A stretch of 64,000 bases of DNA. Origin: an uncultured Acidimicrobiaceae bacterium. Its GTDB lineage: Bacteria > Actinomycetota > Acidimicrobiia > Spongiisociales > UBA5794. The notes under the pieces are model-generated. The model saw nothing but the letters and a program-made list of their open reading frames with translations, was not told where the DNA came from and did not search any database. Below, piece after piece: positions 12,471 to 52,221 of this stretch. The stretch is from positions 8,711 to 72,710 of the forward strand of contig CAYWPC010000006.1 in NCBI GenBank assembly GCA_964460075.1. Direction: 5' to 3'. Position 1 is the stretch's first letter, and each line of letters begins with the position of its first letter. A program made the position numbers and the translations under genes.

Positions 12471-12945
12471 TGTGGGCCCCTCCGCGGGTCGATCATGGAC
12501 GTCACACTACATCGGTGACAGATCCCTCAGGACATGGCAGAATGGCTTCACGGAGAAAGGAGGTGGTCCAGAGATGTCTGAAAGTTTCTGTAGGACCCCG
12601 GAGGTGGCCGAGCGCTAGCCCGGCCGGCTGTGTAACAGCGAGGTCGCGCTTTTCGTGAGAGACAGGTGGCGACTTCAACTCGGACCACCGGAACCCGGAG
12701 TACCACACGCAGGTCCCGTGTGGCGTCGGAGACGTCGAGGATGCTCCGGGTTTTCACGCGCCTCGTGCGCGGCTAGATGGACCGGTCGCAGAGATGATTG
12801 CTGTGTGTCTGCACTTTGACGTCTGTGGGGTCGCCCTCCGCCTTGACGCAAGAGCAAGCTCGGCTTCGCGTAGCGTCCTCGCGTAAGGTTCTTGAGTAGA
12901 GGTTGACGCTCCAAACGTCTGTGGTCATGGCAGTAGGATCGAGGC

Positions 12946-13716
12946 ATGGAAATCGATGCATACATGTCCTCGATACGCGCGACAGCAGCTGACATGGTTG
13001 CCGCTGCGAAGCTTGTGGGCCTCAGCGCAGACGTTCCCACATGCCCCGAATGGCGTATGCGAGACCTCATGGTGCACACGGGTGTTGTTCACCGACACAA
13101 GGCTGAGACCGTTCGCGGCAGCTATGTGGCGGCGCCGGGACCACAACCCGAAGGACCCGACGGCGACGTTCTCCAATGGTTCAACGACGGTGTAGGCGAC
13201 ATGTTGGACGTGTTCGCGGAGGCGGACCTTGGTGCTCCCACCTGGACCTGGTGTGCGCACAGCCACAGTGCAAGCTGGTGGGTGAGGCGAATGGCGCACG
13301 AAACGGTGATCCATGCTGCCGATGCGGTCATCGCCGCCGGCGGGGTGCCGAGCGTCGATCCATGGCTTGCGACCGACGGTGTCGACGAGATTCTCGACGA
13401 GATGATGATCGGTGGTCGCCAGTGGGGCACGGTCACCCCGAAGGATCGTGCCGTCACCCTAGAAACGGAAGGGCGCCGGTGGGTTCTTCGCATGGCGACG
13501 TTTTCGGGCACTTCCCCTGACACAGGTACCACGCACACGGGGCTTGACACCTTCGTGTACGGCGGATCCTGTGCGCCGGATGCGAGCGTACGCATTGATC
13601 CCACGACGCTCGATCTGTGGCTCTGGGGTCGCGTGGAGTTACCAGACGATGCCGTCACGGGTGATAGGTCGCTCGTCCGACATATTCGGACCGTTGCAGC
13701 GGCGGCAACCTCGTGA
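12946..13716 (+). CDS. DinB/MDMPI-like (maleylpyruvate isomerase N-terminal domain family) actinobacterial protein
   Basis: Pattern PEWRMRDLMVHTGVVHRH in the N-terminal ~60 aa. The family assignment is tentative. Confidence 0.45.
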   Translation: MEIDAYMSSIRATAADMVAAAKLVGLSADVPTCPEWRMRDLMVHTGVVHRHKAETVRGSYVAAPGPQPEGPDGDVLQWFNDGVGDMLDVFAEADLGAPTWTWCAHSHSASWWVRRMAHETVIHAADAVIAAGGVPSVDPWLATDGVDEILDEMMIGGRQWGTVTPKDRAVTLETEGRRWVLRMATFSGTSPDTGTTHTGLDTFVYGGSCAPDASVRIDPTTLDLWLWGRVELPDDAVTGDRSLVRHIRTVAAAATS

Positions 13717-14324
13717 CAGGTCCCGTCACCGTTCAGGTGTTTCCTTTTCGATCCGATGCAGAGATAGCGCTCGCACGTCTGGCGGCTGACGGTATCAAGG
13801 CGGCCATTCGGGCTGACGACGAAGGCGGGCTCAACCCAGGGTTCTTCAAACGATACGGTGTACGTCTTGAGGTGGATGGCTCCGACCTCGAGGACGCATA
13901 CGAGAGCCTTGGCATTGAACGGGTCACTGTTCCCCAGGAGATTGCAGACGCGATGTTCGCTCACTCGGCGTGGGCCTATCCCGAGGAAGCCTGCGGCCTC
14001 GTCGCCATGGACGGTCACGGTGACGTTCAGATGGTGTTCTGTCTGACGAATGCACACGACAGCGCTCATCGGTTCACGATTGATCCGGCCGAGCATTTCG
14101 GATGTGTCCGCTATGCAGATGAACGCGGTTGGGCGATTGGTGGTGTCTTCCACAGCCACGTGGAATCTGACGCCTATCCATCGCCATTCGACATCGACGG
14201 TGGAGCCGATCCTCTGTGGATCAACTTCATCGTTGGACCGGTGAGCGGTCCACGCTCACGGCTACGTGCCTTCCGCTTCGAAGGCACGTTCGTTGCTGAG
14301 GTTTCGCTTGCGGTCGGCTCGTAG
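13713..14324 (+). CDS. Fusion of an N-terminal DUF2007-like domain with a JAMM/MPN+ (Mec-like) metalloprotease
   Basis: Exact JAMM motif HSHVESDAYPSPFD (HxHx7Sx2D) with an upstream Glu (EEACG). The N-terminal ~85 aa form a separate small domain. Confidence 0.7.
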   Translation: MTGPVTVQVFPFRSDAEIALARLAADGIKAAIRADDEGGLNPGFFKRYGVRLEVDGSDLEDAYESLGIERVTVPQEIADAMFAHSAWAYPEEACGLVAMDGHGDVQMVFCLTNAHDSAHRFTIDPAEHFGCVRYADERGWAIGGVFHSHVESDAYPSPFDIDGGADPLWINFIVGPVSGPRSRLRAFRFEGTFVAEVSLAVGS

Positions 14325-14334
14325 ACTCCCAGCG

Positions 14335-14616
14335 ATGGCCCGGTCTGATCACAATCGAGAGGCGTACCGTGTGCTATTCGGGTACGTCGGCGCTGGGCTT
14401 CAGGCGTTCGCCGTGTTGATGATCGCAATCTCGATTCCTGTCGCCCCATCGTGGGTGATCGCGTTGCTCTTCGGCTTGTTCGTCGTGTCGACTGGCTGGT
14501 CGTGGACGAGGTACCGATCCAACTTCATGATGCCCACGTTCACGGGAACCGCTATGGCGGGCCTGTGGATGGTTGTCGTTGGTCTTGGCGCGATGTTGCT
14601 TGGATGGGGACCATGA
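14335..14616 (+). CDS. Small membrane protein (2-3 TM helices), hypothetical
   Basis: Hydrophobic helices follow a basic N-terminus. The stop makes an ATGA overlap with the next gene. Confidence 0.45.
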   Translation: MARSDHNREAYRVLFGYVGAGLQAFAVLMIAISIPVAPSWVIALLFGLFVVSTGWSWTRYRSNFMMPTFTGTAMAGLWMVVVGLGAMLLGWGP

Positions 14617-15374
14617 AGCTGACCGTGTTGGGATCCAACGCGAGCGCGCCGTCGCGTTCCAACCCCGCCTCGGGGTATCTGCTCGACATTGACGGGTTCA
14701 CCGTTCTGATGGACTGCGGCCCAGGTGTGTTCATGAGGCTCGCTGAGCTGATGGATCCAGGAGCGCTCGACGCTGTGATCCTCTCGCACACGCATGTCGA
14801 TCACTGTTCCGACGTTCTTGCGTTGTACTCCTACCTGGCCTTTGGGATGACTGCTTACAGGTCGATCCCCGTGTATTCGCCGGAAGGCACGAAGGAGCAT
14901 CTCGCTTCGTTCGCCCGTGCTGGGGAAGATCACGTCTTTCACGAGGTGCTCGATGTTCGCGAGCGGGCTCCGGGTCAACGTGCCGATCTCGGCCCGGCCC
15001 AGGTGACGTGGGGAGCGGCTATCCATCCTGTCCCAGCCCTTGTTTCACGGATCGAGGCCGGTTCTGGAACTTTGGTATTCAGTGGAGACACCGGTCCAGG
15101 AGGTGATCTCTTGGAACTCGCTCAAGGTGCTTCCCTTCTGCTGAGCGAGGCCTCCCTCCAGGGCAGACGCGACGAGGACACCTACGGCTTTCACCTCACC
15201 GCGGCAGATGCGGGTGACACTGCCTCATGGGCTGGAGCAGGTGAGTTGGTCCTCACGCACATTCCTGCGAGCCTCGACCCTCGGCTGAGCGTCGAGGAGG
15301 CGGAGGGAGCGTTCGCTGGATTGGTGAGTTATGCCGCACCAGGTACAACATTCGAGATCACGACAATGGGGTAG
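14613..15374 (+). CDS. MBL-fold metallo-hydrolase
   Basis: HTHVDHCSD (HxHxDH) motif. The start MKLTVLGS overlaps the upstream stop. Upstream of rph, as in mycobacteria. Confidence 0.75.
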   Translation: MKLTVLGSNASAPSRSNPASGYLLDIDGFTVLMDCGPGVFMRLAELMDPGALDAVILSHTHVDHCSDVLALYSYLAFGMTAYRSIPVYSPEGTKEHLASFARAGEDHVFHEVLDVRERAPGQRADLGPAQVTWGAAIHPVPALVSRIEAGSGTLVFSGDTGPGGDLLELAQGASLLLSEASLQGRRDEDTYGFHLTAADAGDTASWAGAGELVLTHIPASLDPRLSVEEAEGAFAGLVSYAAPGTTFEITTMG

Positions 15375-15378
15375 GGAT

Positions 15379-16080
15379 ATGAGAAATGGGCGCGAGAACG
15401 ACGGGCTGCGTGCGGTGACGATCACCCGCGGCTACACCGAGATGACACCGGGTTCGGTGCTGATCGAGATGGGCAAGACGAGGGTCCTGTGCACCGTGTC
15501 GCTCGACGATGATGTGCCTCCCTGGATGAAGAAGTCAGGGTCCGGCTGGGTGACTGCCGAATACGCGATGCTGCCCGGTGCGAGTCCCCAGCGCATTCGG
15601 CGTGGATCGGTCAATGGTGGCAGGACCAAGGAGATTCAGCGGCTGATAGGACGATCGCTGAGGGCTGCCGTCGACATGGAGGCGATGGGACCGATCACCG
15701 CCAGGATCGACTGTGACGTCCTGCAAGCCGATGGTGGTACCAGAACGGCTTCAATAACGGGGGCATGGATTGCTCTAGCCGATGCGTTTGACAGGTGGGT
15801 CGCCGACGGCAAGATGCATGCAAACCCGATCATCCGCAACATCGCAGCGATCTCGGTCGGGATTCTCGACGGTGTCCCGATGCTCGATCTTGAATATACG
15901 GAAGATGTCGCAGCGGACGTCGATGCGAACATCGTGATGACGGGAGATGGGGAGCTGATCGAGGTTCAGGGCACAGCAGAGGGTGAGCCGTTCAGTCGTG
16001 GTCTGCTCGATACGATGCTCGACTACGCGCAGTGCGGGATCGCCTCACTGGTGACGATGCAGAACGAGTCGCGTTCGTGA
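15379..16080 (+). CDS. rph: Ribonuclease PH
   Basis: N-terminus DGLRAVTITRGYTEMTPGSVLIEMGKTRVLCTVS. The ATG lies just after the upstream stop. Confidence 0.9.
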   Translation: MRNGRENDGLRAVTITRGYTEMTPGSVLIEMGKTRVLCTVSLDDDVPPWMKKSGSGWVTAEYAMLPGASPQRIRRGSVNGGRTKEIQRLIGRSLRAAVDMEAMGPITARIDCDVLQADGGTRTASITGAWIALADAFDRWVADGKMHANPIIRNIAAISVGILDGVPMLDLEYTEDVAADVDANIVMTGDGELIEVQGTAEGEPFSRGLLDTMLDYAQCGIASLVTMQNESRS

Positions 16081-16670
16081 ATCGCCCACATGGTGTGGTC
16101 GTTGCGTCGAAAAATGCAGATAAGATCGCCGAGGTGGAAGCGGTTCTAGCCGCCCTCGTCCCTTCGATTGTCGTGATTCCTGGACACGTTTGGGAGGATG
16201 TCGACGAGACGGCTGACACGCTTTCAGGTAACGCGCTGCTGAAAGCTCGGGCTGTCGTGAGCGCAACAGGGCATGCTGCGTTGGCAGATGACACTGGGTT
16301 GGAGGTCGATGCGCTTGGTGGAGCCCCCGGTGTTCAGACTGCGCGCTATGCAGGTGAGGGAGCGACATACGATGAGAACGTCGACAAGATCCTCGCCGCG
16401 ATGGTTGGCATCGCGGATCGGGGAGCAAGGTTTCGGACCGCGGTGGCGCTGGTGACGCCAACAGGTGATGAGCTTGTCGTCGAAGGCGTTCTTGAGGGGA
16501 TGATCGCGTTGGAGCGTCGGGGTGATGGTGGGTTCGGCTATGACCCGATTTTCGAGGTCGATACCAGGACACTCGCCGAGATTCCTGCTGATGAGAAGAA
16601 CCGGATCAGTCACCGTGCCCGCGCCCTGCGCGCCCTCGCGGCTTGCCTCTCCGACAGCCCAATCGTGTGA
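16077..16670 (+). CDS. rdgB: Non-canonical purine NTP pyrophosphatase (RdgB/HAM1)
   Basis: VVVASKNADKIAEV followed by the Ham1 fold. It makes a GTGA overlap with the rph stop. Confidence 0.8.
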   Translation: MNRPHGVVVASKNADKIAEVEAVLAALVPSIVVIPGHVWEDVDETADTLSGNALLKARAVVSATGHAALADDTGLEVDALGGAPGVQTARYAGEGATYDENVDKILAAMVGIADRGARFRTAVALVTPTGDELVVEGVLEGMIALERRGDGGFGYDPIFEVDTRTLAEIPADEKNRISHRARALRALAACLSDSPIV

Positions 16671-16717: not shown

Positions 16718-16755
16718 CACTGAATGGCTCCGGATCGGCTGTTCATGGGTGGCCG

Positions 16756-16837
16756 TGCGGGCGAGAGGACTCGAACCTCCACTCCGTTAGGAACCAGGTC
16801 CTAAACCTGGCGCGTCTGCCAATTCCGCCACACCCGC
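16756..16837 (-). tRNA. tRNA-Leu (anticodon TAG)
   Basis: Hand-folded. Acceptor stem GCGGGTG/CGCCCGC; anticodon loop TTTAGGA; long variable arm; T-arm GGTTCGAGTCC. 82 nt. Confidence 0.85.
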
Positions 16838-16883
16838 GTGTAGTCGCTGATTCTGGCACACGATGGCGCCCAGAAACGTGAAA

Positions 16884-16903
16884 GCCCCCGATGAACGGGG
16901 GCT
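16884..16903 (-). terminator. GC-rich hairpin (GCCCCCG-ATGAA-CGGGGGC) between tRNA-Lys and tRNA-Leu. Possible terminator or processing site.
   Basis: Perfect 7-bp GC stem, followed on the minus strand by TTTC. Confidence 0.35.
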
Positions 16904-16908
16904 GCCCG

Positions 16909-16982
16909 TGGGTCGCCTGGGACTTGAACCCAGAACCTACGGATTAAGAGTCCGTTGCTCTGCCAAATTGAGCTAGCGACCC
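16909..16982 (-). tRNA. tRNA-Lys (anticodon CTT)
   Basis: Hand-folded. Acceptor stem GGGTCGC/GCGACCC; anticodon loop CTCTTAA; T-arm GGTTCAAGTCC. 74 nt. Confidence 0.85.
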
Positions 16983-17078: not shown

Positions 17079-18023
17079 ATGAGCGAGGGCAGCAGAAGTG
17101 TCAGTGCCGAGAGGCAAAGTGTCAATATGCACCCCGACAGGATTGTCAGTCAGATCGCCGCCAAGCAAGGCGGAGCTGTGACCCGTACGCAGGCTCTCGC
17201 CTCTGGTTTGTCTAAGGATCAGATCACCTACCGCGTTCGTACAAGGCGTTGGAGTCGGCTGGCCGACGGTGCCTACCGAGTGCTCGAGATGGATGGCCGG
17301 TTGAATCTTGCTCGGGCAGCAGTAGCGGTGTTGCCTGGGGCTGTCGCATCGCACTTTTCGGCCGCAGCCATCCACGGCATGGACAAAGTCGACACCCGAA
17401 TGGTTTCAGTTCTTGTTCATTCTCAGACGACACACAATTTCCCCGGCGTGCAAGTCTTTCGATGCCACGATCTCGCCGTGGATCACATCGTTGAACTCAA
17501 CGGGCTGGTAACCACAACGCCAGCTCGGACTGTCGTTGATCTTGCAGCGACCTTGCGCCCGAAGCGCCTCGGCTTCGTTATTGACGATGCTGTTGCAGCT
17601 CAGCGAACCACGCTCCGCCAGATAGAGGTCGTCCTCGATGCGGTTGCGCGCCGCGGGAAGCCGGGAGTGCGTGCGTTGCGGGCGGTGCTCGATCTGAGGC
17701 AAGGGGAAGATCGACCAGCGTCCGTCCTGGAGAAAGCCGGTAACAGACTGCTCAGGGAGGATGGAATTCGAGGCTTCGTCACCGAGTTCCCCCTACCGTG
17801 GTCGCCTCGCAGGCGCTTTGATGTTGCGTTTCCAGATCGTTGTCTTGCTATCGAGTGGGATTCTCGTCGCTGGCATACGCAAGCTGAAGCGTTCGAGCGC
17901 GATCGGTATCGGGACCGAGAGGCCGTCGTCCACGGGTGGCGAGTACTGCGATTCACCTGGGACGATGTTCAGACGCGACCTGAACACGTTCTCGAAACGC
18001 TGTGGGCCGTTCTCGCGTCGTAG
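17079..18023 (+). CDS. AbiEi_4-like N-terminal domain / DUF559 (Vsr-like endonuclease fold) C-terminal domain protein
   Basis: N-terminus: IAAKQGGAVTRTQALASGLSKDQITYRVRTRRW. C-terminus: RFDVAFPDRCLAIEWDSRRWH...RDRYRDREAVVHGWRVLRF. Confidence 0.7.
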   Translation: MSEGSRSVSAERQSVNMHPDRIVSQIAAKQGGAVTRTQALASGLSKDQITYRVRTRRWSRLADGAYRVLEMDGRLNLARAAVAVLPGAVASHFSAAAIHGMDKVDTRMVSVLVHSQTTHNFPGVQVFRCHDLAVDHIVELNGLVTTTPARTVVDLAATLRPKRLGFVIDDAVAAQRTTLRQIEVVLDAVARRGKPGVRALRAVLDLRQGEDRPASVLEKAGNRLLREDGIRGFVTEFPLPWSPRRRFDVAFPDRCLAIEWDSRRWHTQAEAFERDRYRDREAVVHGWRVLRFTWDDVQTRPEHVLETLWAVLAS

Positions 18024-18156: not shown

Positions 18157-18230
18157 CGGGCTGTGGCGCAGCTTGGAAGCGCACCTGCTTTGGGAGCAGG
18201 GGGTCGTCAGTTCAAATCTGACCAGCCCGA
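18157..18230 (+). tRNA. tRNA-Pro (anticodon TGG)
   Basis: Hand-folded. Acceptor stem CGGGCTG/CAGCCCG; anticodon loop TTTGGGA; T-arm AGTTCAAATCTGAC. 74 nt. Confidence 0.85.
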
Positions 18231-18240
18231 CTACGAACAG

Positions 18241-18396: not shown

Positions 18397-18984
18397 TCAC
18401 GGCCCTGATTTCGTTCCCAAGGCAACAAAGTCGATCGCTGTCGCATCAGCGTCTTTGACGTACCGTTCGCGTTCGCCGAGTTCTCTGATGTCGAGACCGT
18501 CTACCAGGGAGGAGATACGATCTTTTGACCAGAGAATCTCAGGGTACGGGGGCCCTCCGTAGCCCCCGGTGAGGTTCGATAGAGCGTGGCCGACGGCGAA
18601 GAACGTACCGCCCACAGCGACCGAATCGACTGCCCTGCGGAAGGCAGAGGTCAATTCTGGAATCGGGAGGTGTAGGTAGAAGATTACGACAAGGTCGAAA
18701 GTCTTGTCCGGCTGAAATGATGTCGCGTCGGCGACGATCCAATCGACGGACGCATCGCCTGCGAGTTGGCGGGCCTTGTCGATGCCGGCACGGGAGAAGT
18801 CGACTGCCGTAACCGACCAACCTTGGCGTGCAAGCCAGATAGCGTTGCGCCCCTCACCGCAGGCGACGTCGAGGGCTGTCCCTGCCGAGAGCTCTTCGGT
18901 GATCGGTGGAAGAAATATGTTCGGTCCAGCTGACCAAACGAGGTCCGAGGCCCTGTAGCGATCATCCCACATCGTGCTGTCCAT
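18397..18984 (-). CDS. Class I SAM-dependent methyltransferase
   Basis: Motif I LDVACGEGRNAIWLA. Start taken at MDSTMWDDRY. The 354-aa ORF in the track is an upstream extension that overlaps the divergent gene. Confidence 0.7.
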   Translation of the reverse strand: MDSTMWDDRYRASDLVWSAGPNIFLPPITEELSAGTALDVACGEGRNAIWLARQGWSVTAVDFSRAGIDKARQLAGDASVDWIVADATSFQPDKTFDLVVIFYLHLPIPELTSAFRRAVDSVAVGGTFFAVGHALSNLTGGYGGPPYPEILWSKDRISSLVDGLDIRELGERERYVKDADATAIDFVALGTKSGP

Positions 18985-19635
18985 GTGGCAATGGTACGAC
19001 TGCAGTGGTGCGAAGATACCGATGTGAATACCGCATGGGACCCGCTGACCGTTGACGAGATTGCCGAACGGTTCGATCCCTACGGTGTGGCCTGGTGGAT
19101 CGCGGGTGGGTGGGCGATCGACTGCTTTCTCGGATGGGAGACGAGACCCCACGACGACATCGACGTCGAAATGTTCCGTGCCGACCGCGACGTCCTGTCT
19201 GACGTTTTCGCCGGATGGGAACTGTTCACCGTGAGCAGCGGTACATGGACACCGTGGTGTCGTGGTTCGCCGATCGCACCCGAGGTGTTCGGAATATGGG
19301 GTCGGCCATCGAAAGAATCGCCGTGGCGCGTCGAGATCTTGCTCGCCGACGGCGACGACGATCGGTGGCGTTTTCGTAGAGACCCCGCCGTCAACCTCGC
19401 ACGTGACGCGCTCATCCGCTACACGAGCAGCGGAATCCCGTACTGCACTCCTGAGGTCCAACTGCTGTACAAGGCGAAGATGGCAAGACCAAAGGATGAT
19501 GTCGATCTAGCAAGGTGCCTGCACCACATGGGAACCAAGCAGCGAAGATGGCTTGCCGAGGCCATCGAGCGCATCGATCCGCAGCACGCCTGGATCAGGG
19601 TGCTCGAGATTGCGACACGGAGTCGAGATGAATGA
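18985..19635 (+). CDS. ANT(2'')-Ia-like nucleotidyltransferase family protein
   Basis: WIAGGWAIDCFLGWETRPHDDIDVEM closely matches the AadB-type active-site region WIGGGWAID...HDDIDL. Starts with GTG at 18985 or ATG at 18991. Confidence 0.6.
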   Translation: MAMVRLQWCEDTDVNTAWDPLTVDEIAERFDPYGVAWWIAGGWAIDCFLGWETRPHDDIDVEMFRADRDVLSDVFAGWELFTVSSGTWTPWCRGSPIAPEVFGIWGRPSKESPWRVEILLADGDDDRWRFRRDPAVNLARDALIRYTSSGIPYCTPEVQLLYKAKMARPKDDVDLARCLHHMGTKQRRWLAEAIERIDPQHAWIRVLEIATRSRDE

Positions 19636-19666: not shown

Positions 19667-19737
19667 GCGGGTGTAGCTCAATGGCAGAGCCCCAGCCTTC
19701 CAAGCTGGTCACGCGGGTTCGACTCCCGTCACCCGCT
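19667..19737 (+). tRNA. tRNA-Gly (anticodon TCC)
   Basis: Acceptor stem GCGGGTG/CACCCGC; anticodon loop CTTCCAA; T-arm GGTTCGACTCC. Confidence 0.85.
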
Positions 19738-19767
19738 CGACCGGTGGAACAGAACGCCACCGGCCTA

Positions 19768-19841
19768 GCCCCCGTAGCTCAATGGGATAGAGCGACGGAC
19801 TTCTAATCCGTAGGTTGCACGTTCGAGTCGTGCCGGGGGTG
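19768..19841 (+). tRNA. tRNA-Arg (anticodon TCT)
   Basis: Acceptor stem GCCCCCG/CGGGGGT; anticodon loop CTTCTAA; T-arm GGTTCGAGTCG. Confidence 0.8.
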
Positions 19842-19863
19842 CGGCGGGTTCGCCCGCTGACAT

Positions 19864-19942
19864 GGTGGCCGTAGCTCAGCTCGGTTAGAGCGCCTGGTTG
19901 TGGTCCAGGAAGTCGCGGGTTCAAATCCCGTCGGCCACCCCA
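19864..19942 (+). tRNA. tRNA-His (anticodon GTG), with encoded G-1 and CCA
   Basis: G-1 plus GTGGCCG...CGGCCAC-C-CCA; anticodon loop TTGTGGT; T-arm GGTTCAAATCC. Confidence 0.85.
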
Positions 19943-42142: not shown

Positions 42143-43018
42143 ATGACGACCGGATGGACGACTCCAGGAGATGTCGGCGCGGATCTCGCCGACGTCGGAT
42201 ACCTTTCAGATTCCCGAATCGCGCAGGTTGTCTTCCTCGCCGATCGGCTTGAGAAACCGATTCTGGCCGAAGGGCCAGCAGGCGTCGGCAAGACCGCTCT
42301 GGCGATTGCTCTGGCCGAGGCCACAGGACGGAGACTCGTTCGTCTCCAGTGCTATGAGGGTCTCGACGAAGCGAAAGCTCTCTACGAGTGGGACTATCAC
42401 AAGCAACTACTTCGGCTCCAGACAGATGAGGGAGCTGCATGGACGGAACTTGAGGGTGATATCTTCTCGGAGCCGTTTCTGCTTGAACGTCCACTCTTGG
42501 CGGCTATTCGCTCGGAGGATCCCGTTGTGCTCCTCATAGACGAGGTCGACCGCGTCGAGGTGGAGACAGAGGCGCTGCTACTCGAGGTGCTTGACGCGTT
42601 CCAGGTGACGATCCCTGAACTTGGGACCATCACGGCTGTGTCGAAGCCGATTGTCGTGTTGACCTCGAACAACACGAGGGAGCTTTCCGAGGCGCTCAAG
42701 CGTCGATGTTTGTACCTCCATATTCCGTATCCAACGATCGATCGAGAGAGATTGATCCTCGAAGCTCGAGTTCCGCAGCTCCCGAAGGTGCTCGCCGACA
42801 GGGTCGCGAGGACCGTTGCGGCGATCAGAGAGGTTCCCCTGAGGAAGGCACCGTCGGTTTCTGAGACAATCGACTGGGCCCGTACGCTCCTCGAGTTGGG
42901 AATCGAGGATCTCGACGACGATGCGACCTCAGAGACGCTTCATGTCTTGCTCAAGTATCGAGCAGACATCGAAAAGGTTGCAAAGGAGCTTTCACTCGAC
43001 GTTTCCGAAGACCGATAG
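42143..43018 (+). CDS. MoxR-family AAA+ ATPase (CbbQ/NorQ/CoxD-like short form)
   Basis: Walker A GPAGVGKT and Walker B LLIDEVDR. 291 aa. Confidence 0.8.
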   Translation: MTTGWTTPGDVGADLADVGYLSDSRIAQVVFLADRLEKPILAEGPAGVGKTALAIALAEATGRRLVRLQCYEGLDEAKALYEWDYHKQLLRLQTDEGAAWTELEGDIFSEPFLLERPLLAAIRSEDPVVLLIDEVDRVEVETEALLLEVLDAFQVTIPELGTITAVSKPIVVLTSNNTRELSEALKRRCLYLHIPYPTIDRERLILEARVPQLPKVLADRVARTVAAIREVPLRKAPSVSETIDWARTLLELGIEDLDDDATSETLHVLLKYRADIEKVAKELSLDVSEDR

Positions 43019-43023
43019 CGGCG

Positions 43024-44445
43024 ATGTTCGCCTCCCTGACTACGTTCGTCGATGAGCTGCGAACGACCGGCATTCCTATATCGATGGTCGAGGTGATCGA
43101 TGCTGCGTCTGCGCTTGAGCACACTGATTTCACCCAATCAGAGAATCTCAGGTCGACGCTCGGTGCGACCTTGATCAAGAACACACGTCACTACGTCGCG
43201 TTCAATGCAGCGTTCGATGTCTTCTTCGGCCTAACGGTCGCAACGGTCGGTGACGAGGCTGAGGCACTCGGCCCAGGCCAAGAGGGTGATGGTGGGTCAG
43301 GGGGGTCTGACGGTGGTGGCGGCGAGCTACTCGATGCGCTTGTTGACGCACTGATGAGCGGCAGACGGGACGATCTGCGTCGGCTGATCGGGCGAGCGGT
43401 GACACTGTACGCAGCCATGCAGCCTGGGAGACCGGTCGGAGGCAGGTACTACATGTATCGGGTGTTGCGTCGGATCAACACGGACGAGCTACTCGCCAGG
43501 CTATTAGCGGCGCTTGTGTCACCTGATCCAGAAGGTGCCATCGACCGAAGGCTCCGTTCGAGCGAAGCCGAGGCGATGGTGCAGACGGTCAGGGACGAAC
43601 TCGAGCGCGAAGTCACCTCGCGGCTCGTCGCAGATAGGGGGGCGAGACAGGTAGCTGCGTCGCGTCGCTTGCCACTCGTAGAAGACATGGATCTCATGCA
43701 TGCGACAAGGACCGAGATCGCTCAGGTAGAGATGGCTATTGCTCCCCTTGCAAGGAAGCTCGCTACCAGGTTGGCGCAGCGCAGAAGGTACGGTCGTGGC
43801 GGGCGCCTCGACGTTCGGCGGACGATCAGACGCTCGCTTGGTCACGGTGGCGTCTTGTTGGAGCCACAGTTCAAAGCGCCCCGGCTATCCAAGCCAGAGA
43901 TCGTCGTGCTATGCGACCTGTCTGGATCTATGGCGACATTTGCGCGGTTTACGATGCAACTGACCTATGCAATTGCATCCGAACTGTCGAAGGTGCGCGT
44001 ATTCGGGTTTATCGATGGCCTCGACGAGGTGACCGAGTACTTCGGGACGGGTGTCGACTTCGCTGACGGGCTCATCGAGATGAGTCGGCGGGCCGATCTT
44101 GTGCGGGCAGATGGGCATTCCGACTACGGGAGGTCCTTCCTGGACATGTGGGAACGGTACAGCGAGGCGATCACGCCGCGTACCTCTGTCATCATCACCG
44201 GTGACGCCCGAAACAACTACCGGAGCCCTGGGGAGTCGTATCTCGATCGCATCGTGGAACGCTCACGAGCGACGTTCTGGCTCAACCCCGAACCGCGACG
44301 ATACTGGGACACAGGCGACTCGATCATGTCGCTGTATGCGAATCGATGCGACGTCGTGGAACAGGTACGCACACTCAGACAGCTCGAAGCATTTGTCGAA
44401 CGTGCCGCGCTCCCCACGATGAGGAGACCACGGCTGGCATCCTGA
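43024..44445 (+). CDS. VWA domain protein (CoxE/NorD-like partner of MoxR)
   Basis: C-terminal VWA domain with the MIDAS motif CDLSGSM. Long helical N-terminus. Lies 5 nt after moxR. Confidence 0.75.
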   Translation: MFASLTTFVDELRTTGIPISMVEVIDAASALEHTDFTQSENLRSTLGATLIKNTRHYVAFNAAFDVFFGLTVATVGDEAEALGPGQEGDGGSGGSDGGGGELLDALVDALMSGRRDDLRRLIGRAVTLYAAMQPGRPVGGRYYMYRVLRRINTDELLARLLAALVSPDPEGAIDRRLRSSEAEAMVQTVRDELEREVTSRLVADRGARQVAASRRLPLVEDMDLMHATRTEIAQVEMAIAPLARKLATRLAQRRRYGRGGRLDVRRTIRRSLGHGGVLLEPQFKAPRLSKPEIVVLCDLSGSMATFARFTMQLTYAIASELSKVRVFGFIDGLDEVTEYFGTGVDFADGLIEMSRRADLVRADGHSDYGRSFLDMWERYSEAITPRTSVIITGDARNNYRSPGESYLDRIVERSRATFWLNPEPRRYWDTGDSIMSLYANRCDVVEQVRTLRQLEAFVERAALPTMRRPRLAS

Positions 44446-46457: not shown

Positions 46458-46531
46458 GGGGCTGTAGCTCAGCCTGGCAGAGCACTTGACTGGCAGTCAA
46501 GGGGTCAGGGGTTCGAATCCCCTCAGCTCCA
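46458..46531 (+). tRNA. tRNA-Ala (anticodon GGC). Integration target.
   Basis: Acceptor stem GGGGCTG/CAGCTCC with G3-U70; anticodon loop CTGGCAG; T-arm GGTTCGAATCC. Confidence 0.85.
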
Positions 46532-46556
46532 CGGGAGAGAGAAACGCTGGAACCCT
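46496..46556 (+). repeat. attL-like direct repeat (3' half of tRNA-Ala plus ~25 nt)
   Basis: GTCAAGGGGTCAGGGGTTCGAATCCCCTCAGCTCCACGGGAGAGAGAAACGCTGGAACC recurs at 49371-49430 with about 5 mismatches. Confidence 0.8.
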
Positions 46557-47721: not shown

Positions 47722-47978
47722 CGGAGCCTCCTGACTGATGACCGGAGTGGTAACCATGGAACCAGTGTCTCACATCACGACAAACCGCGGAGCGAACGCG
47801 TCCCTAACAAGCCCAAACATATGCGTTGTTATGGGTGGGTGTGGACGATATAGATCTGGAGGATGGCGCACGGTGGGGTGGGCGTTACCAGAGTGCAGTA
47901 CGCTGCGAGTGGTGAAACGGGAACATCTAGGTATTGGAGTCTGGCGTGGAAGCTGATCGGGAGAGAGCAGAACGCCAT

Positions 47979-48119
47979 GAGCGGGAGCGTAAGGAAGAAC
48001 ACGAGCGCAGTGAGCAGAGACGTAAGGAAGATCGTGAGCGGGCTGACCAAAGGCGTAAGGAAGAGCGTGAGCGGGCTGACCGTAGGCGTAAGGAAGAGCG
48101 TGAGCGGGAGGGTCATGGT
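47979..48119. repeat. Tandem repeat, 4 x 33 bp (unit ..CGTAAGGAAGAGCGTGAGCGGGCTGACC..)
   Basis: The CGTAAGGAAG phase recurs at 47988, 48021, 48054 and 48087. The period of 33 nt is frame-preserving. The plus frame encodes an RRKEERERAD-type charged repeat. Confidence 0.8.
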
Positions 48120-50709: not shown

Positions 50710-52221
50710 TTAGTCGTCTTCGAGTTCGTAGATTCTGTCGATGTAGCGGGTGATCAGTTCCTTCACAGCGGTGCGCGACGGGAAGGTCGCCGCCATCCCG
50801 TACATCGGTGCAGCACCGGTCACGGCCTCACCGCCAGCCGCTCGAGCCTGTGTAACTGCATCGGTGAGATCAGCGAGGAATCGATCGGCAACACCCGGCT
50901 TCGTGTGGCGCAGGGTCACAGCGATGTGCACGGCAGGCGGGTGGTGCAGCCCGTTGAGACTCCACCCCCGCTCGGCCATCCTCGCCATGACCTCATAGAC
51001 GTCTACGTCATCCGATCCAAAGGCGATGACCCACAGCGGATCGCCGAGTACGTGCAACCCTTCGATGTCCCCGATACCGTCTCTGATCTGGGCACCGGTC
51101 GTGAGGATTGCCTCCGTTGCACGCAGATAGCCGTCTTCTCCCATTGAAACCAGGGCGGCCCAGGCGGCAGCGAGAAGGCCTCCTGGGCGGCTTCCCGCAA
51201 GCGTCGGGGAGTAGTAGAGCCCGCCAGGCCATTCGGTAGCAACATGAAACTGGTTCCTGCGAAGGTCCCTTCCGCGGTACAGGACAACAGAAGTCCCTTT
51301 GGCCGCATATCCGTACTTGTGTGTGTCGGCAGACATCGAAGTGACACCTGGCAGTCGGAAATCGAACGGGGCGATGTCATAGCCGAGCCGTTCAGCCCAC
51401 GGCAGCACGAAGCCGCCAAGGCACGCGTCCGTGTGAAATGCAACGCCGCGCTCTCGGGCCATATCGGAGAGTTCAGCAATGGGGTCGATGACACCGTGTG
51501 GGAAGCCAGGTGAGGAACCGGCTACGACAATGGTTCGCCTCGTCATCGCCCTTGCCATCGCATCGACGTCGGCACGAAAATCTCCTCCGACGGGGACACG
51601 CACCTGATCGTATCCGAAATACGCAGCTGCCTTGTCGAAGGCAACGTGGGCTGAGTCTGGCAGCACCATCTGAGGCTTCGAGACGTGAGCGCGGTCCCGA
51701 TACGCCTTCATTGCCATGATGATCGACTCGGTACCCCCCGATGTCACTGTGCCTACGATCTCGTCCCCAGCTTGGGCGGCGACCCGTGCGCCGAGCATCC
51801 CGGCTGTCATGGCAACGACCTCCGCCTCGAACTTCATTCCAGACGGCCACACATCGAGGTGGAGTGGATTCGACTGAGACTGGAGCGCATAGACCCTATT
51901 GAGGAAATCGATGTGTTCGCCGTCGCCGTGATAGACAGCTCCAGAGGCGTAGCCGTCGTTCCAGTCGCCCCTTTCTGCCTCAGCAAGGGCTGAGACGTTG
52001 GCGATGATCTCGTCTCGTGGACGGCCGGTCGCCGGCAGCCGCGAATACACGGGGACGTCGACCTCAGGCCGCACGACAGGCGTGGCGTCGAGCATCGTTT
52101 CATACTCGGCTTCGAGCATCGCGCGAATCTTCGGGACCCTCCCTGCACCGCCTATGAGGGCTGAGGCGACACGACGCGGGAGTTTGTCTATGACTTTCTT
52201 GGCTCGCTCGCTGATGCTCAT
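50710..52221 (-). CDS. PLP-dependent group II decarboxylase family protein (glutamate decarboxylase / sphingosine-1-phosphate-lyase-like)
   Basis: [10 protein letters not shown] and [10 protein letters not shown] (PLP-Lys) motifs. Start chosen at MSISERAKK. Confidence 0.65.

What the first reader, a model, noticed from the sequence alone, without database searches (positions are those of the whole stretch)
13713..14324. Mec-like JAMM metalloprotease fused to an N-terminal DUF2007-like domain and uncoupled from cysO/cysM
The exact JAMM signature HSHVESDAYPSPFD with an upstream Glu identifies an Mpn+ deubiquitinase-like enzyme. Mycobacterial Mec (Rv1334) cleaves CysO-cysteine adducts and sits next to cysO-cysM. 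Here downstream synteny (MBL-rph-rdgB) is kept, but cysO/cysM/rhomboid/murI are replaced by a small membrane protein. The enzyme also has an extra ~85-aa N-terminal domain. Its substrate is therefore open: another ThiS/MoaD-type carrier or a Pup-like modifier.
Basis: partly seen in the sequence, partly recalled or inferred. Interest (0 to 1): 0.5.

Follow-up and report, generated by a model that had tools for sequence, protein, structure and literature searches.

The report
Two-part JAMM peptidase of Acidimicrobiia
This gene encodes an intact zinc "deubiquitinase-type" (JAMM) peptidase that, in a group of uncultured Acidimicrobiia, always comes with a small, highly conserved partner domain of unknown function (fused to it or encoded just upstream), and its substrate is not encoded nearby.

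Summary
Window 13713-14324 (+) encodes a 203-aa protein with a complete JAMM motif (E92, H147-S-H149-x7-S157-x2-D160) and a genuine extra N-terminal domain. That domain spans about 70 residues, not 85.

The N-domain is not a start-codon artefact. It is conserved in hundreds of homologs and is more conserved than the catalytic domain (59.8% vs 47.0% mean identity). It carries an invariant flexible loop, D-[DN]-E-G-G-L-[NS]-P-G-F. It is a distant DUF2007 relative with a small α/β fold, not a ubiquitin-like β-grasp.

In about a tenth of lineages the two halves are separate adjacent genes, mostly with 4-nt overlaps. This split/fused pattern indicates an obligate partnership.

The order (MDMPI-like)–N-dom/JAB–(3-TM protein)–MBL–rph–rdgB holds across about 85 Acidimicrobiia loci. 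None has a CysO/ThiS/MoaD, CysM or full E1 gene within ±10 kb. The nearest single-domain relatives sit either at the same position or beside a MoeZ-type E1.

Most likely it is a Mec-type peptidase acting on a sulfur-carrier protein encoded elsewhere, with the N-domain as a regulatory or docking subunit. The substrate is inferred, not shown. I rate it a new variant of a known kind, of moderate interest.

The parts
13713..14324 (+). Whole gene: 203-aa two-domain protein (DUF2007-like N-domain + Prok-JAB/JAMM domain). The GTG start overlaps the stop of the upstream gene by 4 nt (GTGA).
13713..13928 (+). N-terminal domain, residues 1-72. Predicted fold is β1(4-10)-α1(13-25)-β2(30-34)-long loop-β3(50-55)-α2(56-66). 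It is a distant DUF2007 relative.
13815..13844 (+). Invariant loop D35-D-E-G-G-L-N-P-G-F44, predicted flexible (pLDDT below 50 within residues 37-47).
   Evidence: Invariant in alignments A1 and A2, and conserved in at least 90-95% of unique N-domains from the loci. Part of this constancy comes from how the loci were found, because the genome scan used this motif as its search pattern.
13929..14321 (+). JAMM/MPN+ (Prok-JAB) catalytic domain, residues 73-203.
13986..13988 (+). Catalytic Glu92 (E-A-C-G motif).
   Evidence: Invariant. E[AG]CG is present in all complete copies.
14151..14192 (+). Zinc-binding JAMM motif H147-S-H149-x7-S157-x2-D160.
   Evidence: Read from the sequence. Invariant. 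Present in all complete copies in related loci.
12946..13716 (+). Upstream MDMPI/DinB-like (TIGR03083) gene, translationally coupled to the JAB gene. It is present immediately upstream in roughly half of the related loci.
14335..14616 (+). 93-aa protein with three predicted TM segments and no family match. It is a frequent but dispensable neighbour (55 of 75 loci).
14613..15374 (+). MBL-fold hydrolase related to the Rv1339-type cyclic-nucleotide phosphodiesterase (below the equivalog cut-off). Its start overlaps the stop of the 3-TM gene.
   Evidence: Pfam Lactamase_B_2. NCBIfam NF041851 E=6e-48, 163 bits vs cut-off 400. Rv1339 function from PMC9293780.
15379..16080 (+). rph (RNase PH).
16032..16670 (+). 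rdgB (Ham1-family non-canonical NTP pyrophosphatase).

Best explanation
The gene encodes an active JAMM/MPN+ zinc peptidase of the minimal bacterial 'Prok-JAB'/Mec type. It sits in the mec position of the conserved actinobacterial block that ends in MBL phosphodiesterase, rph and rdgB.

In a clade of uncultured Acidimicrobiia this peptidase works as a two-part unit with a ~70-residue DUF2007-family α/β module. The two are fused in most lineages and are separate but translationally coupled genes in the rest.

Shown:
- The catalytic motif is intact.
- The partnership is obligate (split/fused pattern).
- The N-domain is under stronger constraint than the catalytic domain.
- No sulfur-carrier, CysM or full E1 gene lies nearby.

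Inferred:
- The JAB half hydrolyses the bond after the C-terminal Gly-Gly of a ThiS/MoaD/CysO-type sulfur-carrier protein encoded elsewhere. That could be adduct release as in Mec, or tail/fusion processing as in QbsD or DRJAMM.
- The N-domain acts as a regulatory or substrate-docking subunit through its invariant flexible D-D-E-G-G-L-N-P-G-F loop.
For: - JAMM motif and fold.
- N-domain real and conserved. It is more conserved than the JAB domain in 94% of 2278 pairs (59.8% vs 47.0% mean identity).
- Split/fused pattern: 73 fused and 10 split-adjacent loci among 89. Eight of the 10 split pairs have 4-nt GTGA/ATGA overlaps. Examples are L006, L007 and L094. About 60 stand-alone proteins of ~72 aa are 50-63% identical to the N-domain. 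Split forms nest among fused forms in a crude tree.
- Conserved position upstream of MBL-rph-rdgB. M. tuberculosis mec lies in the rv1331-rv1341 operon with cysO-cysM (PMC8280819).
- Link to sulfur-carrier chemistry: the nearest single-domain relative (P0208, 45% identical, also from an Acidimicrobiia MAG) overlaps a rhodanese+ThiF MoeZ-type E1 gene. Single-domain rhodanese genes lie just upstream in L012 and L080.
- JAMM enzymes are known to process MoaD-type proteins (abstracts of PMC8832034 and PMC4443979).
Against: - No ThiS/MoaD/CysO homolog, CysM or full E1 lies within ±10 kb in any of about 85 N-dom/JAB loci or in the 64-kb window (and the Pfam tables). The substrate assignment therefore rests on family analogy and on one related clade.
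- The JAB is more tightly linked to MBL-rph-rdgB than to any sulfur gene.
- The N-domain's role is pure inference. AF2 does not place its loop confidently, and DUF2007 has no characterised member.
- NCBIfam has no equivalog-level match. The best is desampylase at 42.8 bits against a cut-off of 130.
Confidence: 0.5

Rival explanations
1. Ligand-gated peptidase. The N-domain is a PII/ACT-like small-molecule sensor, for example for a cyclic nucleotide handled by the adjacent MBL phosphodiesterase, or for cysteine or a thiol. It would switch the JAB on or off through its T-loop-like invariant loop. This is compatible with the best explanation and specifies the N-domain's role.
For: The β-α-β-loop-β-α fold has a long flexible invariant β2-β3 loop. 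Structural neighbours include the DUF2007 structure 2HFV, CutA, PII proteins, the c-di-AMP receptor PstA and ACT domains. The gene is constantly adjacent to an Rv1339-like phosphodiesterase. A stand-alone homolog sits beside a GGDEF-EAL gene in L008/L009.
Confidence: 0.2
2. Internal Gly-Gly loop as pseudo-substrate or cleavage site. The invariant E-G-G|L in the flexible loop would occupy the JAB catalytic groove, giving auto-inhibition or being cleaved. The N-domain would then be a built-in inhibitor or a cleaved pro-domain rather than an adaptor.
For: JAMM enzymes cleave directly after Gly-Gly, including linear bonds (abstracts of PMC8832034 and PMC6043591). The motif D-[DN]-E-G-G-L is invariant, lies in a predicted disordered loop, and is kept in both fused and stand-alone partners.
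Against: AF2 gives the loop low confidence rather than docking it. Known substrates present Gly-Gly at the end of a β-grasp domain, which this domain is not. Homologs with the same loop exist without an adjacent JAB (L008/L009, L089). There is no direct evidence of processing.
Confidence: 0.08
3. Non-Ubl substrate tied to the operon. The JAB would have lost sulfur-carrier work and would act on another peptide or protein connected with the MBL-rph-rdgB block or the 3-TM protein. The N-domain would be an oligomerisation module.
Against: This block is a long-range syntenic backbone in Actinomycetota (11-gene operon in M. tuberculosis, PMC8280819), so adjacency need not mean shared function. No neighbour ends in Gly-Gly. 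The 3-TM protein is dispensable. The closest single-domain relative is E1-linked.
Confidence: 0.15
4. Artefact. The N-terminal 70-85 residues are a mis-called 5' extension, and the true protein is a ~130-aa Mec.
For: In-frame GTG codons (V71, V73) lie near the domain boundary. Single-domain relatives are 130-150 aa.
Against: The N-terminal region is the best-conserved part of the protein across hundreds of homologs. It folds into a compact domain. It also exists as an independent gene product.
Confidence: 0.01

Closest known systems
Mec (Rv1334), the CysO-cysteine hydrolase of Mycobacterium tuberculosis (EC 3.13.1.6)
   Same: Both are minimal bacterial JAMM/MPN+ domains with a full E...HxH...S..D motif. 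Both occupy the same position in the actinobacterial block that ends in the MBL phosphodiesterase (Rv1339), rph and rdgB. JGI's automatic annotation labels a few family members with the Mec KO name.
   Different: Here there is no adjacent cysO/cysM. There is an extra, obligatory DUF2007-like partner domain. Activity is untested. I measured no sequence identity to Mec because my recalled Mec sequence proved inexact.
Archaeal and bacterial stand-alone JAMMs acting on MoaD/SAMP-type proteins (PfJAMM1 5LD9, HvJAMM1, DRJAMM; structural-genomics proteins 2KKS, 2KCQ)
   Different: They are single-domain proteins. NCBIfam desampylase scores 42.8 bits against a cut-off of 130. No solved structure covers both domains.
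DUF2007 (PF09413; structure 2HFV, RPA1041)
   Different: The window protein is below the Pfam cut-off (13.4 vs 25.7 bits). The subfamily has its own invariant D-D-E-G-G-L-N-P-G-F loop. DUF2007 itself has no known function, so the resemblance explains nothing mechanistically.
JAB plus MoeZ-type E1 pairs (for example P0208/L091 in Acidimicrobiia)
   Same: P0208 is the nearest single-domain JAB (45% identity over 135 aa) and comes from the same class.
   Different: It has no N-domain and sits in a different locus, where the JAB gene overlaps a rhodanese+ThiF gene. Whether it is an ortholog or a paralog of the fused gene is unresolved.

Membership tests
JAMM/MPN+ metallopeptidase (Pfam Prok-JAB PF14464; MEROPS M67) | Catalytic motif E-x(n)-H-x-H-x7-S-x2-D | tested here: met
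   E92 and H147-S-H149-x7-S157-x2-D160 are present, invariant in the alignment, and intact in all complete homologs.
JAMM/MPN+ metallopeptidase (Pfam Prok-JAB PF14464; MEROPS M67) | Profile score above the curated cut-off, and MPN fold | tested here: met
Mec (CysO-cysteine hydrolase) | Gene clustered with cysO (ThiS/MoaD-type carrier) and cysM | tested here: not met
   No CysO homolog (phmmer --max, best E=0.18) and no conserved GG-terminal ORF in the window or in 89 loci at ±10 kb. No PALP, ThiF or ThiS appears in the Pfam tables of 7 annotated loci.
Mec (CysO-cysteine hydrolase) | Position in the conserved actinobacterial operon upstream of the MBL phosphodiesterase, rph and rdgB | tested here: met
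   Gene order shown. The M. tuberculosis rv1331-rv1341 operon containing mec is taken from PMC8280819. The identities of rv1340 and rv1341 come from my own knowledge.
Mec (CysO-cysteine hydrolase) | Hydrolysis of the CysO-cysteine adduct, and presence of CysO/CysM/MoeZ in the same genome | not testable with these tools
   Only 64 kb of the genome is available, and this needs biochemistry.
DUF2007 (PF09413) | Profile score above the Pfam gathering cut-off | tested here: not met
   The window N-domain scores 13.4 bits, E=0.089, against a cut-off of 25.7.
DUF2007 (PF09413) | Consistent family-level relationship (relatives' hits, fold) | tested here: inconclusive
Ubiquitin-like β-grasp sulfur carriers (ThiS/MoaD/CysO), considered for the N-domain | β-grasp fold and C-terminal Gly-Gly | tested here: not met
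PII/GlnB-like or ACT-like sensor domains, considered for the N-domain | Fold similarity plus ligand binding or trimer architecture | tested here: inconclusive
Desampylase (NCBIfam NF041370) | Equivalog score cut-off | tested here: not met
   42.8 bits vs cut-off 130.
Anti-phage JAB proteins (CBASS Cap3, Bil DUB and similar) | Match to defence-system profiles and a defence-island context | tested here: not met
   No PADLOC hit for the protein or its neighbours. The context is housekeeping genes.

The most novel reading that the evidence does not exclude
The invariant, flexible D-D-E-G-G-L loop of the DUF2007-like module could be read by the JAMM active site itself, as a built-in pseudo-substrate or self-cleavage site, possibly released by a ligand bound to this PII/ACT-like module. 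That would be a previously undescribed mode of JAMM regulation by a non-ubiquitin-fold partner, and it would give the first function for any DUF2007 domain.
Probability: 0.1. Interest if true: 0.7.

Novelty: new variant of a known kind. Interest (0 to 1): 0.4.

Why it matters
Bacterial JAMM peptidases are the relatives of eukaryotic deubiquitinases. Outside sulfur-carrier and phage-defence systems their substrates and regulation are largely unknown.

This case shows a JAMM that has acquired an obligatory partner that is not ubiquitin-like. The partner is more constrained than the enzyme, occurs either fused or as a translationally coupled separate gene, and is kept across a whole clade of uncultured Acidimicrobiia. 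That gives DUF2007, a family with no characterised member, its first firm functional association. It also gives a simple experimental handle: co-express the two halves and test them on the organism's ThiS/MoaD-type proteins.

The data also indicate that the JAB-MBL-rph-rdgB arrangement occurs without cysO-cysM in several related lineages. This bears on how the mycobacterial mec-cysO-cysM cluster arose. The practical importance is modest, because the enzyme class and chemistry are known.

Tried and rejected
- **Start-codon artefact:** rejected on conservation.
- **N-domain as a ubiquitin-like carrier:** rejected. No β-grasp fold and no C-terminal GG.
- **A ThiS/MoaD/CysO gene hidden nearby:** no conserved GG-terminal ORF was found; the only clusters are antisense shadow ORFs. 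phmmer --max with a PDB-verified CysO sequence found only noise.
- **CysM, E1 or a second JAB in the window:** none found by Pfam spot checks, MoeZ phmmer and JAB hmmsearch.
- **Anti-phage defence role:** no PADLOC hits.
- **Identity to M. tuberculosis Mec:** my recalled sequence was not an exact database sequence, so I dropped it.
- **AFDB Foldseek:** the library was unavailable.
- **PDB profile search with the N-domain:** no hits.
- **Literature on DUF2007:** six papers, none functional.
- **NJ tree of JAB domains:** too poorly resolved to decide monophyly of the N-dom-linked family. It shows only that split forms nest among fused forms.
- **Not attempted:** a third large protein search and the metagenome scan, because neither could link genes to the same genome.

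Full report
**1. The observation**

The ORF at window 13713-14324 (+) exists as described. It starts with GTG and encodes 203 aa. Residues 147-160 read HSHVESDAYPSPFD, a perfect H-x-H-x7-S-x2-D JAMM motif, and the catalytic glutamate is E92 in EEACG. Pfam Prok-JAB (PF14464) matches residues 74-180 at E=4.1e-16, 59.3 bits against a cut-off of 25.

**2. The N-terminal region is a real domain**

A search of 5.8 billion proteins returned 237 hits. The best 120 are nearly all ~203 aa and cover the query from residue 1, at 57-79% identity. In a 24-sequence alignment the N-terminal 70 residues hold 21 invariant columns, including the run D35-x-E-G-G-L-x-P-G-F44.

Across 68 unique fused proteins from named genomes, the N-domain averages 59.8% pairwise identity against 47.0% for the JAB domain. 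It is the more conserved half in 94% of 2278 pairs. One caveat applies: the genome scan that gathered these loci used the loop motif as a search pattern, so the loop's constancy there is partly by construction. The independent searches show the same constancy.

The domain boundary is at residue ~68-72, not 85. Three results agree:
- The N-domain's AF2 elements are β(4-10), α(13-25), β(30-34), loop, β(50-55), α(56-66).
- The Pfam JAB match begins at residue 74.
- The stand-alone JAB genes of split loci start at the equivalent of residue ~69-71.

**3. What the N-domain is**

The window protein scores only 13.4 bits on Pfam DUF2007, below the cut-off of 25.7. Even so, DUF2007 is the top family for 17 of 20 relatives (best E=8e-05), and many stand-alone homologs carry a precomputed PF09413 annotation.

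No ubiquitin-like β-grasp appears in the list. Foldseek finds nothing at E<=1e-3, and its weak list has the same mix plus the c-di-AMP receptor PstA. A PDB profile search found nothing. The literature holds no functional study of DUF2007.

So the domain is a small α/β module and a diverged DUF2007 subfamily. It is not a Ubl. The invariant loop is predicted to be flexible, with pLDDT below 50.

**4. The split/fused evidence**

Searching with the N-domain alone found about 60 stand-alone proteins of 69-78 aa, 50-63% identical, with the same loop and varied non-GG C-termini.

On a 4.16-Mb Acidimicrobiia contig (L006), the 71-aa gene overlaps by 4 nt a stand-alone 131-aa Prok-JAB gene. That pair is followed by the same 94-aa membrane protein, MBL, rph and rdgB. 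L007 and L094 show the same pairing.

In 89 loci, of which 80 came from a scan of GTDB species-representative genomes, my script found:
- 73 fused genes;
- 10 split-adjacent pairs;
- 6 with the N-domain only. Two of these are cut by contig ends, three are copies of one unclassified lineage, and one is labelled Oligoflexales.

Eight of the 10 split pairs have GTGA or ATGA overlaps. In a crude NJ tree the split JABs nest among fused ones. All complete copies keep the catalytic motif.

The exhaustive search of 1.84 billion 50%-identity representatives found 2591 relatives. Only about 10 representatives carry the N-domain. The rest are 130-150-aa single-domain JABs that match only residues ~70-200. 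The architecture is therefore a clade-specific elaboration, seen almost only in MAGs labelled Acidimicrobiia or Actinomycetota. A few contigs are labelled otherwise, and I did not check whether these are binning errors.

**5. Genomic context**

The order (MDMPI/DinB-like)–N-dom/JAB–(3-TM protein)–MBL–rph–rdgB is nearly universal. In the window the genes are tightly packed, with 4-nt overlaps at 13713-13716 and 14613-16.

The 3-TM protein (window 14335-14616, no family match) is present in 55 of 75 loci and absent from 19. It is therefore an accessory, not a replacement for cysO/cysM.

No conserved Gly-Gly-terminal small ORF exists near the pair. A PDB-verified CysO sequence finds nothing in the window or in any locus with phmmer --max. 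The Pfam tables of seven annotated loci show no PALP, ThiF or ThiS domain.

The window itself is housekeeping DNA. It holds an ABC transporter, a dihydropyrimidine-dehydrogenase-like pair, PFK, tig, valS, mreBC-rodA, L21-L27, proB, MoxR/VWA, copper resistance genes and leuS. It contains no second JAB or N-domain.

The M. tuberculosis frame of reference comes from PMC8280819: mec = rv1334 lies in an rv1331-rv1341 operon that includes cysO and cysM. PMC9293780 identifies Rv1339 as a cAMP phosphodiesterase.

**6. Nearest relatives without the N-domain**

- P0216 (39% identity) and P0230 sit directly upstream of MBL-rph-rdgB with neither the N-domain nor cysO.
- P0208 is the closest (45% identity over 135 aa). 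It comes from an Acidimicrobiia MAG and overlaps a rhodanese+ThiF MoeZ-type E1 gene.
- Single-domain rhodanese genes lie just upstream of the MDMPI-like/JAB genes in L012 and L080.

These are the only pointers found here to sulfur-carrier chemistry for this JAB clade.

**7. Interpretation**

Shown:
- An intact JAMM peptidase.
- An obligatory DUF2007-like partner, fused or translationally coupled, under stronger constraint than the enzyme.
- A conserved position in the actinobacterial mec...rph-rdgB block.
- No local carrier, CysM or full E1 gene.

Inferred:
- The substrate is a ThiS/MoaD/CysO-type protein encoded elsewhere, with Mec-like adduct release or QbsD/DRJAMM-like processing.
- The N-domain is a regulatory or docking subunit acting through its invariant loop.

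Alternatives:
- The N-domain is a ligand-sensing PII/ACT-like switch. This is compatible with the main model.
- The internal E-G-G-L loop acts as a pseudo-substrate or cleavage site. This is speculative.
- The substrate is not a Ubl and is tied to the neighbouring genes.
- The N-terminus is an annotation artefact. This is refuted.

Nothing supports a Pup-like modifier.

**8. Verdict**

This is a new variant of a known kind: a JAMM peptidase with a previously unannotated, obligatory accessory domain that is not ubiquitin-like. Interest is moderate (0.4). It gives DUF2007 its first firm functional association and a readily testable system, but the chemistry and enzyme family are familiar.

Noticed in passing
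L091 6001-7568 (also L092): In an Acidimicrobiia MAG, a single-domain JAB (P0208, 140 aa, 45% identical to the window's JAB domain) overlaps a 384-aa rhodanese+ThiF MoeZ-type E1 gene. No ThiS/CysO-like ORF lies within ±6 kb.
   Followed up: partly
L090 6001-8474; L093 74-1256: Single-domain JABs (39% and 38% identical to the query) sit directly upstream of MBL-rph-rdgB with no N-domain and no cysO/cysM. The cysO-free JAB-MBL-rph-rdgB arrangement therefore extends beyond the fused family.
   Followed up: partly
L008 10001-10237; L009 7916-8152; L087: A 78-aa stand-alone N-domain homolog with the same DDEGGLNPGFF loop is not next to any JAB. It overlaps the end of a DUF218 gene and faces a GGDEF-EAL gene.
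   Followed up: no
L012 1326-1823; L080 8766-9176: Single-domain rhodanese genes (Pfam E=1e-14 and 3e-12) lie immediately upstream of the MDMPI-like/N-dom-JAB genes in two close relatives. The window has a 475-bp non-coding gap (12471-12945) at that place.
   Followed up: partly
L006 8696-9922; L007 8742-9968; L094 4240-5088: In split-gene lineages an amidinotransferase/arginine-deiminase-family gene (PF02274) lies upstream of the N-domain gene: directly in L006 and L007, and separated from it by a divergent MBL gene in L094.
   Followed up: no
window 14335-14616: A 93-aa protein with three predicted TM segments has no Pfam, NCBIfam or PADLOC match. It lies between the JAB and MBL genes in 55 of 75 loci and is absent from 19.
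   Followed up: partly
window 16755-16982 (-), 18157-18231, 19667-19942, 46458-46532: Seven tRNA genes are present: Leu-TAG, Lys-CTT, Pro-TGG, a Gly-TCC/Arg-TCT/His-GTG cluster, and Ala-GGC. The first six flank the small island described in the next item.
   Followed up: no
window 17079-18023, 18397-18963 (-), 18985-19635: Between the tRNA genes lie three genes: a DUF559/MTES_1575 endonuclease-like gene (34.5 bits, below the Pfam cut-off), a SAM methyltransferase, and an aminoglycoside-2''-adenylyltransferase-like gene. The same trio recurs downstream of rdgB in related loci (L002, L003, L005).
   Followed up: no
window 42143-44445: A MoxR-type AAA ATPase gene is followed by a VWA CoxE-like gene, a typical chaperone pair of unknown client.
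   Followed up: no
window 50905-51993 and 47829-48116: Four small ORFs (80, 89, 102 and 95 aa) have coding-like GC3 and no Pfam match.
   Followed up: no
L072 and L094 (5104-5919, - strand): A second, divergently oriented MBL-fold gene lies just upstream of the split N-dom/JAB pair, in addition to the downstream MBL gene.
   Followed up: no
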